Assembly: GCF_988243305.1 (NCBI RefSeq)
Contig: NZ_OZ547136.1
Length of the DNA stretch: 64,000 nt
Reading direction: 5' to 3' (one strand)
Shown: one piece after another, positions 22,118 to 22,797 of the stretch
How positions within the stretch are numbered: position 1 is the stretch's first letter
Layout: each line of letters starts with the position of its first letter
The notes under the pieces: model-generated
The model's database searches: none
The model's input: the letters and a program-made list of their open reading frames with translations, nothing else
Told to the model about the DNA's origin: nothing
Program-made: the position numbers and the translations under genes

Positions 22118-22492
22118 ATGAAAAAGGATCTGAAAACGCTGGCGCTGGCCAGACTGTCAGGGTTTCGTCATAAAACGGTGAAGGTGCCGGAATGGGGTAA
22201 TGTCAGCGTGGTGCTGCGGGAGCCTTCGGCAGAGGCCTGGTATCTGTGGCAGGAAGTGCTCAATGGTGATGGAGAGGATGACGATACCCTGTCGGTGGTG
22301 GCGAAAACCCGCCGTAACCTGGAAGCGGATGTGACGCTGTTCTGCGATGTCCTGTGTGATACGGATCTGCAGCGGGTGTTCGCTCCGGACGACCGTGAGC
22401 AGGTGCTGGCCGTCTATGGTCCGGTACATGCCCGGTTGCTGCGTCAGGCACTGGAACTGATCGCTGATGCAGAGTCGGCCAGAAAAAAGTAG
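22118..22492 (+). CDS. Tail assembly chaperone G
   Basis: Acidic 124-aa protein ending at the slippery heptamer A_AAA_AAG (22483-22489). Confidence 0.75.
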   Translation: MKKDLKTLALARLSGFRHKTVKVPEWGNVSVVLREPSAEAWYLWQEVLNGDGEDDDTLSVVAKTRRNLEADVTLFCDVLCDTDLQRVFAPDDREQVLAVYGPVHARLLRQALELIADAESARKK

Positions 22493-22797
22493 CCCGCCCG
22501 GAAATTCGCTTTCTGATGCGACTTGCGCTCCGTCTGGGGCGCACCTTATCCGAACTGCGGCACAGCCTGAGTGTGAGCGAGGCGATGATGTGGATGGAGT
22601 TCGACAGGGTATCCCCGCTGGGTGATGAGCGCGGGGATATCCGTAATGCACAGATCGTGAAAGCGGTTTTTGGGGCACAGGGGATGAATGTTGCACTGAA
22701 GGACGCCATGCTCTGCTGGGGCGAGGATGAGGATAAGCCGGAGGTGGATCCGTTTGCGGCGCTGGAAGACGCGCTGAGCTTTGCAGCACAGTCATGA
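22483..22797 (+). CDS. T portion of the G-T fusion, reached by -1 programmed frameshift
   Basis: The -1 frame is open from the slip site to 22797; no independent RBS; organisation identical to lambda G/GT. Confidence 0.65.
   Translation, partial: KKVARPEIRFLMRLALRLGRTLSELRHSLSVSEAMMWMEFDRVSPLGDERGDIRNAQIVKAVFGAQGMNVALKDAMLCWGEDEDKPEVDPFAALEDALSFAAQS

What the first reader, a model, noticed from the sequence alone, without database searches (positions are those of the whole stretch)
22470..22520. Programmed -1 frameshift site for the G/GT tail chaperone
The slippery heptamer A_AAA_AAG sits 1 codon before the G stop, and the -1 frame stays open into the T region through 22797. This matches the conserved lambda G-T frameshift and implies a GT fusion product that automated annotation commonly misses.
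Basis: partly seen in the sequence, partly recalled or inferred. Interest (0 to 1): 0.3.

Follow-up and report, generated by a model that had tools for sequence, protein, structure and literature searches.

The report
Known phage tail-chaperone frameshift site
This is a genuine but already known, already reporter-tested programmed -1 ribosomal frameshift that makes a minor fused "GT" tail-assembly chaperone in an HK97-type tail module of an E. coli prophage; genome annotation misses the fusion, but it is biologically ordinary.

Summary
A_AAA_AAG lies at 22483-22489, in the zero frame of a 124-aa tail-chaperone ORF (22118-22492). It directly abuts the TAG stop, rather than sitting one codon before it. 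The -1 frame is open only from 22468 and runs to the TGA at 22795-22797, so any shift must fall within 22 nt, and this is the only canonical heptamer there. The predicted fusion is 226 aa. Its N-terminal half is Pfam Phage_TAC_1 (HK97 gp13 type, PDB 2OB9). Its C-terminal half is Phage_tail_T, the family of lambda T. The locus sits between the major tail and tape-measure genes. Diverged relatives keep a shift-prone N_NNA_AAG at the homologous position, and HK97 and HK544 are annotated with this frameshift. RefSeq annotates this locus as two separate genes. A 75-nt cassette identical to window 22463-22537 was tested in an E. coli reporter by Antonov et al. 2013 (NAR) and gave 7% frameshifting. 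One refinement: the G half is the HK97 type, not a sequence homologue of lambda G. Verdict: real, ordinary and already known; low interest.

The parts
21387..22103 (+). Major tail (tube) protein gene with a C-terminal Ig-like domain; upstream neighbour of the chaperone gene
   Evidence: Pfam Phage_TTP_11 and Phage_tail_2 (weak) plus Ig_3/I-set. PGAP names the 100%-identical E2348/69 locus 'major tail subunit'.
22118..22492 (+). G-like tail assembly chaperone ORF (124 aa, zero frame), HK97 gp13 type; the SD-like AAGGGG lies about 10 nt upstream of the ATG
   Evidence: Pfam Phage_TAC_1 6e-61, full length. phrog_344 'tail assembly chaperone'. PDB 2OB9 E 4e-46. Sequence read.
22465..22467 (+). Last stop codon (TGA) in the -1 frame upstream of the shift site; sets the 5' limit of where a productive shift can occur
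22483..22489 (+). Slippery heptamer A_AAA_AAG (P-site AAA, A-site AAG in the zero frame)
   Evidence: Invariant in 80 close relatives. Lies inside the 75-nt cassette measured at 7% frameshifting.
22490..22492 (+). TAG stop of the G ORF, immediately 3' of the heptamer
22489..22797 (+). -1 frame segment read after the shift (102 aa, VARPEIRFLM...AAQS, then TGA); the T domain of the GT fusion. GT = join(22118..22489, 22489..22797), 226 aa
   Evidence: Pfam Phage_tail_T 7e-18 at fusion residues 152-222. phrog_337, and phrog_14766 which spans both halves. Alignment.
22516..22518 (+). ATG that PGAP and GenBank annotators use as the start of a separate 'T' gene; here read as an internal Met of the conserved F-L-M motif, with no convincing Shine-Dalgarno sequence upstream
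   Evidence: Annotations. Upstream sequence cccggaaattcgctttctgATG. The -1 frame peptide upstream of this Met is conserved.
22845..26087 (+). Tail tape measure protein gene (1080 aa); downstream neighbour and presumed binding partner of G/GT
   Evidence: Pfam Phage_HK97_TLTM 1e-90, TMP_3, Tape_meas_lam_C

Best explanation
A minority of ribosomes translating the HK97-gp13-type tail chaperone gene (22118-22492) slip back one base at A_AAA_AAG (22483-22489). The published reporter figure for the identical cassette is about 7%. The single E. coli tRNA-Lys(UUU) pairs weakly with AAG and re-pairs on the overlapping AAA. The P-site tRNA-Lys can re-pair AAA to AAA at the same time. The ribosome then reads GTA GCC CGC... 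instead of the TAG stop and adds a 102-aa T domain, giving a 226-aa GT fusion alongside the abundant 124-aa G protein. By analogy with lambda gpG/gpGT, both would coat the tape-measure protein through the G part. The T part of the rare GT would recruit the major tail protein, and neither would end up in the virion. What is shown here: the anatomy, the family membership and the conservation of the shift site. What is published: frameshift efficiency for the identical 75-nt core. What is inferred: that the shift is ribosomal rather than transcriptional, and the role in tail assembly.
For: The heptamer is in phase and is the only X_XXY_YYZ in the ORF, inside a 22-nt two-frame overlap. The G half is Phage_TAC_1 at 6e-61 and the -1 half is Phage_tail_T at 7e-18. 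phrog_14766 spans both halves as one protein. The synteny is major tail, G, T, tape measure. HK97 and HK544 homologues (63% identity) are annotated with a -1 frameshift join. The shift site sits at the homologous position in relatives: A_AAA_AAG in relatives of 68%, 48% and about 33% identity, G_GGA_AAG in mEp390, and G_GAA_AAG or A_GCA_AAG in 71 of 80 further IMG/VR loci. Every one of these relatives has N_NNA_AAG there, and 79 of 80 keep the T motif in the -1 frame. The -1 frame peptide is conserved upstream of the annotated ATG (K-K/A-V-x-x-P-x-x-x-F-L-M). In some relatives the -1 ORF opens exactly at the heptamer, with only 7 nt of overlap. A 75-nt cassette identical to window 22463-22537 gave 7% +/- 0.79 frameshift product in an E. 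coli GST-MBP reporter, and a G_GGA_AAG sister cassette gave 6% (PMC3711429 Table S2; identity checked). A_AAA_AAG is described as among the most shift-prone sequences in E. coli (review PMC5009743).
Against: There is no direct protein evidence (mass spectrometry or western blot) for GT from this prophage. The reporter measured protein only, so it does not by itself separate ribosomal from transcriptional slippage on the A6 run. The published insert also carried 18 nt of upstream and 45 nt of downstream flank that I could not compare with the window. No stimulatory element was found. The downstream fold is not better than shuffles (z -1.5, 18 of 200), its hairpin starts about 34 nt away, and there is no clear SD-like sequence upstream.
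Confidence: 0.92

Rival explanations
1. RNA polymerase, not the ribosome, produces the frame change. It would stutter on the A6 run (22483-22488) and add one extra A to a fraction of transcripts, which then encode the same K-K-V... fusion.
For: One inserted A gives exactly the same protein. Some relatives carry longer runs: A8 in vB_EcoS-689R5 and A7 in Vibrio phage Pm34 and Serratia OS31. The reporter in PMC3711429 measured protein only, and that paper notes that poly-A can shift at transcription or at translation.
Against: The run here is only 6 A. The same paper places transcriptional realignment at runs longer than 7 A. Most relatives have A3-A4 at the homologous site (G_GAA_AAG, A_GCA_AAG, G_GGA_AAG), where polymerase slippage is implausible, yet they keep the same two-frame architecture. 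The G_GGA_AAG cassette frameshifts at 6%, almost the same as this one.
Confidence: 0.05
2. T is an independent gene, as annotated by PGAP. It would be translated from ATG 22516 by its own initiation or by coupling after G termination, and the heptamer would be incidental.
For: RefSeq and most GenBank records annotate a separate 93-aa 'phage tail assembly protein T' starting at this ATG. The ATG lies 24 nt after the G stop, within a plausible range for re-initiation.
Against: There is no convincing Shine-Dalgarno sequence in the 20 nt upstream. The Met is part of a conserved internal F-L-M motif. The 8-9 codons upstream of it in the -1 frame are conserved as protein across relatives down to 33% identity. 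The -1 ORF opens at or just before the slip site in several relatives. Expert-annotated HK97 and HK544 join the two ORFs. The reporter shows that a fusion is made. Low-level independent T synthesis in addition is not excluded; the internal-initiation blot in the paper is an image I could not read.
Confidence: 0.03
3. The heptamer is a chance occurrence in a decayed prophage and has no function.
For: AAAAAAG is common in the window, with 29 copies. Many E. coli prophages are defective.
Against: Only 2 of 33,802 ORF codon positions carry it in the slippery phase, and this one falls in a 22-nt overlap. It is invariant in 80 close relatives. The homologous position is shift-prone across the family. 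All neighbouring tail genes are intact.
Confidence: 0.01

Closest known systems
Phage HK97 gp13/gp14 tail assembly chaperone -1 frameshift (NC_002167, 7472..8145; gp13 structure PDB 2OB9)
   Same: The G half is in the same Pfam family (Phage_TAC_1; PDB 2OB9 E 4e-46). The T half is Phage_tail_T. The position between major tail and HK97-type tape measure is the same, as are the -1 direction and the shift position relative to the conserved F-L-M motif.
   Different: G identity is about 63%. HK97 has the non-canonical CGG_GAA_AAG, 5 codons before the G stop. Here the site is the canonical A_AAA_AAG abutting the stop. HK97 also has a moron (gp15) between T and H that is absent here.
Phage lambda gpG/gpGT (Levin, Hendrix & Casjens 1993; Xu, Hendrix & Duda 2004, 2013, 2014; cited via PMC5009743)
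   Same: The logic is the same: two overlapping ORFs between V and H, a low-level -1 shift on a heptamer ending in A_AAG decoded by tRNA-Lys, and a T domain of the same Pfam family (lambda T 54 bits, this one 65 bits).
   Different: Lambda uses G_GGA_AAG with 5 sense codons before the stop. Lambda G is Phage_TAC_2, and no pairwise similarity to this G or T was found. The lambda rate is about 4% (a 30:1 ratio) against 7% for this cassette in a reporter.
GeneTack 'Phage_TAC' frameshift cluster 862991913, fs-gene 15618692 (Antonov et al. 2013, NAR, PMC3711429)
   Same: The listed 75-nt insert is identical to window 22463-22537. It is described as HK97-like tail assembly chaperone and gave 7% +/- 0.79 frameshifting in E. 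coli.
   Different: No difference in the listed core.
E. coli dnaX tau/gamma -1 frameshift
   Same: The slippery heptamer A_AAA_AAG is identical, and the dependence on tRNA-Lys(mnm5s2U) is the same.
   Different: dnaX has an upstream SD-like stimulator and a downstream hairpin and shifts at about 50%. Neither stimulator is evident here, and the efficiency is about 7%. In dnaX the shift shortens the product; here it lengthens it.

Membership tests
Conserved tail-assembly-chaperone G/GT programmed frameshift of long-tailed phages (Xu, Hendrix & Duda 2004 class) | Two ORFs located between the major tail protein gene and the tape measure gene | tested here: met
   Major tail 21387-22103, G 22118-22492, T frame to 22797, tape measure 22845-26087
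Conserved tail-assembly-chaperone G/GT programmed frameshift of long-tailed phages (Xu, Hendrix & Duda 2004 class) | The downstream ORF overlaps the upstream one in another frame, with a slippery sequence inside the overlap | tested here: met
   22-nt overlap at 22468-22489 in the -1 frame. A_AAA_AAG at 22483-22489 is the only canonical heptamer.
Conserved tail-assembly-chaperone G/GT programmed frameshift of long-tailed phages (Xu, Hendrix & Duda 2004 class) | The downstream ORF lacks its own credible translation start, and coding conservation extends upstream of any ATG | tested here: met
   No SD upstream of ATG 22516. The -1 peptide V-x-x-P-x-x-x-F-L-M is conserved in 10 diverged relatives.
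Conserved tail-assembly-chaperone G/GT programmed frameshift of long-tailed phages (Xu, Hendrix & Duda 2004 class) | The arrangement is conserved in diverged relatives | tested here: met
   10 diverged phage loci and 80 IMG/VR loci. All have N_NNA_AAG at the homologous site, and 79 of 80 have the T motif in the -1 frame.
Conserved tail-assembly-chaperone G/GT programmed frameshift of long-tailed phages (Xu, Hendrix & Duda 2004 class) | A fusion protein is actually made at a low percentage of G | not testable with these tools
   Published reporter result for the identical 75-nt core: 7% +/- 0.79 (PMC3711429 Table S2; identity). There are no data for the native prophage.
Phage_TAC_1 (PF06222; HK97 gp13 type chaperone) | Full-length match above Pfam's gathering score, plus similarity to the solved HK97 gp13 | tested here: met
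   204 bits against a cut-off of 25, residues 1-124 on profile positions 1-124. PDB 2OB9 E 4.4e-46.
Phage_TAC_2 (PF06894; lambda gpG) | Match to the lambda G family profile, or pairwise similarity to lambda G | tested here: not met
   No PF06894 hit at E <= 0.01, whereas lambda G hits it at 9e-62. BLASTP against lambda G gives E 6.5.
Phage_tail_T (PF06223; lambda T domain) | The -1 frame product matches the T profile above the gathering score | tested here: met
   65.3 bits against a cut-off of 25.9, profile positions 1-71 of 73. Lambda T scores 54.1 bits and HK97 73.6 bits in the same family. Direct BLASTP to lambda T is not significant.
dnaX-type stimulated -1 frameshift cassette | A_AAA_AAG heptamer | tested here: met
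dnaX-type stimulated -1 frameshift cassette | An upstream SD-like stimulator about 10 nt 5' and a stable hairpin a few nt 3' of the heptamer | tested here: not met
   The upstream sequence GCAGAGTCGGCC has no AGGAGG-like run. The downstream 81 nt fold at -27.5 kcal/mol against -23.5 +/- 2.6 for shuffles (z -1.5), and the main hairpin starts about 34 nt away.

The most novel reading that the evidence does not exclude
The most novel reading not excluded concerns the stop codon that directly follows the heptamer. This arrangement occurs here and recurs in several diverged relatives, including those with only A_GCA_AAG_TAA. Slow termination at an empty A site could let the P-site tRNA-Lys slip from AAG to AAA. 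GT yield would then depend on release-factor activity and on tRNA-Lys thiolation state, giving a way to tune the G:GT ratio that differs from lambda's internal heptamer.
Probability: 0.12. Interest if true: 0.3.

Novelty: already known. Interest (0 to 1): 0.08.

Why it matters
The main value is for annotation. 1,245 of 5,426 complete E. coli genomes carry this locus at 90% identity or more. In the RefSeq records I inspected it is annotated as two genes, with a 93-aa 'T' starting at an internal Met. The likely real products are a 124-aa G protein and a 226-aa GT fusion. Correct annotation matters for proteomics searches and for prophage functionality calls. It also matters for using the G:GT ratio, which is sensitive to tRNA-Lys modification in lambda (PMC3296357), as a handle on phage production, including in Stx-converting phages that share this tail module. 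It opens no new biological question.

Tried and rejected
(1) Direct homology to lambda G and T by BLASTP gave no significant alignment. The link to lambda exists only at the profile level, and only for the T half.

(2) NCBIfam returned no family for the fusion.

(3) I looked for a downstream stimulatory RNA structure. The fold was not better than shuffles.

(4) I looked for an upstream SD-like stimulator by eye and found none.

(5) The 80 close IMG/VR relatives were tested for variation at the heptamer. It is invariant, but the loci are 98-100% identical, so this says little. A second, more diverged set was therefore fetched.

(6) Xu et al. 2004 could not be read because it is not held.

(7) The internal-initiation control for this cassette in Antonov et al. 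is an image, so I could not read it.

(8) The terminator scan did not call the hairpin after T. Folding shows a 9-bp stem followed by a U-run, but this is not significant against shuffles.

Full report
**Observation**

[quoted passage not shown]. The ORF ending at TAG 22490-22492 most plausibly starts at ATG 22118. That start is preceded by AAGGGG about 10 nt upstream and lies just after the TAA of the major tail gene. The ORF encodes 124 aa.

A_AAA_AAG occupies 22483-22489 in the X_XXY_YYZ phase of this ORF, and it is the only such heptamer in the ORF. Its last codon is the last sense codon, so the heptamer abuts the stop.

The -1 frame has a TGA at 22465-22467 and is then open to the TGA at 22795-22797. 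A productive shift must therefore happen within 22 nt. The fusion join(22118..22489, 22489..22797) is 226 aa.

AAAAAAG is not rare in the window: 29 copies on both strands against 13.2 +/- 3.7 expected. However, only 2 of 33,802 codon positions in ORFs of at least 100 codons have it in the slippery phase. One is this site. The other lies in a probably spurious antisense ORF. Placement inside a 6-7 codon overlap by chance has a probability of order 4e-4.

**What the two halves are**

- The zero-frame protein matches Pfam Phage_TAC_1 over its full length (6e-61), and phrog_344 'tail assembly chaperone'.
- It also matches the solved HK97 tail assembly chaperone, PDB 2OB9 (E 4e-46).
- The -1 part matches Pfam Phage_tail_T (7e-18, 65 bits against a cut-off of 25.9) and phrog_337.
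- phrog_14766 is a 224-position profile that covers both halves as one protein.

The neighbours are as follows. Upstream are a tail completion protein and a major tail protein with a C-terminal Ig domain. Downstream are a 1080-aa tape measure (Phage_HK97_TLTM, TMP_3, Tape_meas_lam_C) and a lambda-M-like minor tail protein. This is the canonical position of the G/GT pair.

**Source and existing annotation**

The window is an E. coli chromosome carrying a lambdoid prophage. A 25-kb stretch is 99.9% identical to strains 700462 and NCCP15648. The 801 bp around the site are 100% identical in E2348/69 and many other strains, and 1,245 of 5,426 complete genomes carry the locus. The locus is 95-99.8% identical in 92 phage records, mostly Stx1a- and Stx2-converting phages.

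PGAP annotates 'phage tail assembly chaperone' (375 nt) and a separate 'phage tail assembly protein T' (282 nt, starting at the ATG that corresponds to 22516). RefSeq phage JLK-2012 and GenBank vB_EcoS-569R3 do the same.

**Comparative evidence**

tblastn with G finds 199 phage records, down to about 33% identity. HK97 (gp13/gp14, 'translated due to a -1 frameshift') and HK544 ('programmed frameshift'), both about 63% identical, carry expert-annotated joins.

I located the G stop, the flanking -1 frame stops and the in-phase heptamers in ten diverged loci:

| Site | Loci | Position relative to G stop |
|---|---|---|
| A_AAA_AAG | vB_EcoS-689R5 (68% identity; two-frame overlap exactly 7 nt), Vibrio phage Pm34 (48%) | abuts the stop |
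| A_AAA_AAG | Serratia OS31, two Burkholderia phages (about 33%) | 8-10 codons before the stop |
| G_GGA_AAG | mEp390 | 1 codon before the stop |
| G_GAA_AAG | HK97 (5 codons before the stop), Cronobacter ENT39118 (1 codon before) | — |
| A_GCA_AAG | a Klebsiella phage | abuts the stop |

Aligning the stop-to-stop -1 frame translations puts all these sites in the same column. They lie 8-9 residues upstream of an invariant F-L/M-M-x-L-A-L-R motif, with conserved residues between them (K-K/A-V-x-x-P-x-x-x-F-L-M). So the Met used as the 'T start' by annotators is an internal residue, and coding constraint in the -1 frame begins at the slip site.

A second scan of IMG/VR, with a profile led by a diverged member, gave 80 more loci. 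At the homologous site these had G_GAA_AAG (38), A_GCA_AAG (33), G_GCA_AAG (3), A_AAA_AAG (3), T_GCA_AAG (2) and A_GAA_AAG (1). The T motif was present in the -1 frame in 79 of 80.

The family-wide constant is therefore A_AAG in the A-site position. The window carries the variant in which the P-site tRNA can also re-pair perfectly. The 80 close relatives from the first scan keep the heptamer unchanged, but they are too similar to be informative.

**Published experiment**

Antonov et al. 2013 (NAR 41:6514, PMC3711429) describe a GeneTack cluster 'phage tail assembly chaperone'. It contains 41 fs-genes, is similar to HK97, and was tested with two cassettes giving 6% and 7%.

[quoted passage not shown] This 75-mer matches window 22463-22537 exactly.

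The second cassette (...GCG_GGA_AAG_CCG_TAA...) gave 6%. The site in the window has thus already been predicted, and its core has been shown to direct -1 frame expression in E. coli. The actual inserts included further flanks that are not printed.

**Mechanism**

Atkins et al. 2016 (PMC5009743) make four relevant points:

- A_AAG, and especially A_AAA_AAG, are among the most shift-prone sequences in E. coli.
- The single tRNA-Lys (mnm5s2U34) pairs better with AAA than with AAG.
- Lambda gpG and gpGT are needed at about 30:1. G binds the tape measure, T binds the major tail protein, and neither is in the virion.
- The G-T frameshift is widely conserved among long-tailed phages.

Maynard et al. 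2012 (PMC3296357) show that tRNA-Lys thiolation sets the lambda gpG:gpGT ratio.

I therefore infer tandem (or A-site) -1 slippage of tRNA-Lys at 22483-22489.

No stimulators were found. The 81 nt downstream fold no better than shuffles (z -1.5), and the only solid hairpin starts about 34 nt away. Nothing SD-like precedes the heptamer. This fits a single-digit efficiency, unlike dnaX, which uses the same heptamer with two stimulators and shifts at about 50%.

**Rivals**

- *Transcriptional slippage.* It would give the same protein, and the reporter does not exclude it. The run here is only A6, however. Most relatives have A3-A4 at the site, and the G_GGA_AAG cassette works about as well.
- *Independent initiation of T at ATG 22516.* This is what databases annotate. 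There is no SD sequence, and conservation of the -1 frame upstream of the ATG argues against it as the main route. A minor contribution is not excluded.
- *Chance.* This is effectively excluded.

**Comparison with lambda**

Lambda's site is G_GGA_AAG with five sense codons before the G stop. Lambda G belongs to Phage_TAC_2, while lambda T belongs to Phage_tail_T. Neither shows pairwise similarity to the window proteins.

The window site therefore works like lambda G/GT, and its T domain is in the same Pfam family as lambda T. It is a member of the HK97 gp13/gp14 lineage, not of the lambda G family.

**Verdict**

It has been predicted, clustered and reporter-tested with an identical core sequence. 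The residual value is in fixing the annotation. Interest is low.

Noticed in passing
window 17270-19855 (+), repeats at 18857-19389: The 861-aa ORF that PGAP calls 'phage portal protein' has its Phage_portal domain only at residues 54-382. The rest is a C-terminal extension of about 480 aa. It contains 3.3 tandem copies of a 162-bp (54-aa) unit at 95% identity (PVPRDGRDYDP...VSHI) and a weak CBM_5_12-like hit near the C-terminus. This is unusually long for a portal, and the role of the extension is unknown.
   Followed up: partly
window 22803-22829 (+): A 9-bp hairpin (GAGAACCGC-UGAG-GCGGUUUUU, -10.8 kcal/mol) followed by a U-run lies between the T-frame stop and the tape-measure start, and looks like an intrinsic terminator or attenuator. 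The fold is not significant against shuffles (z -1.5), and the terminator scan did not call it. HK97 and HK544 have annotated putative terminators just upstream of their tape-measure genes.
   Followed up: partly
window 21309-21364 (+): Two terminator-like hairpins with T-runs lie between the tail completion gene (ends 21322) and the major tail gene. HK97 and HK544 carry an annotated terminator at the same place. This suggests a conserved attenuation point in the tail operon.
   Followed up: no
window 21387-22103 (+): The major tail protein carries an in-frame C-terminal immunoglobulin-like domain (Ig_3, Ig_2 and I-set, residues about 150-228 of the 239-aa translation). Various phage records annotate it as 'fibritin', 'Hoc-like head decoration' or 'immunoglobulin domain-containing protein'.
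   Followed up: no
whole window, both strands: AAAAAAG is about twice as frequent as expected from dinucleotide-preserving shuffles (29 against 13.2 +/- 3.7; none of 100 shuffles reached 29). Yet it is almost absent from the slippery phase of long ORFs (2 of 33,802 codon positions).
   Followed up: partly
L096-L175 (IMG/VR relatives), L088, L089: Most relatives of this chaperone family use non-canonical shift sites at the homologous position. In G_GAA_AAG (38 of 80) and A_GCA_AAG (33 of 80) the P-site tRNA cannot re-pair perfectly. In the GCA_AAG_TAA cases the two-frame overlap is only 7 nt and the stop follows at once. This suggests single-tRNA-Lys slippage, possibly helped by the adjacent stop codon.
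   Followed up: partly
L095 (lambda NC_001416 10115-10549): Even the lambda RefSeq record lists T as a stand-alone CDS starting at the last base of the slippery heptamer, rather than as a joined GT product. The under-annotation therefore extends to the type example.
   Followed up: no
L091 (Serratia phage vB_SspS_OS31 27251-27310): An IS150-family transposase gene sits immediately upstream of the major tail gene in this relative's tail module.
   Followed up: no
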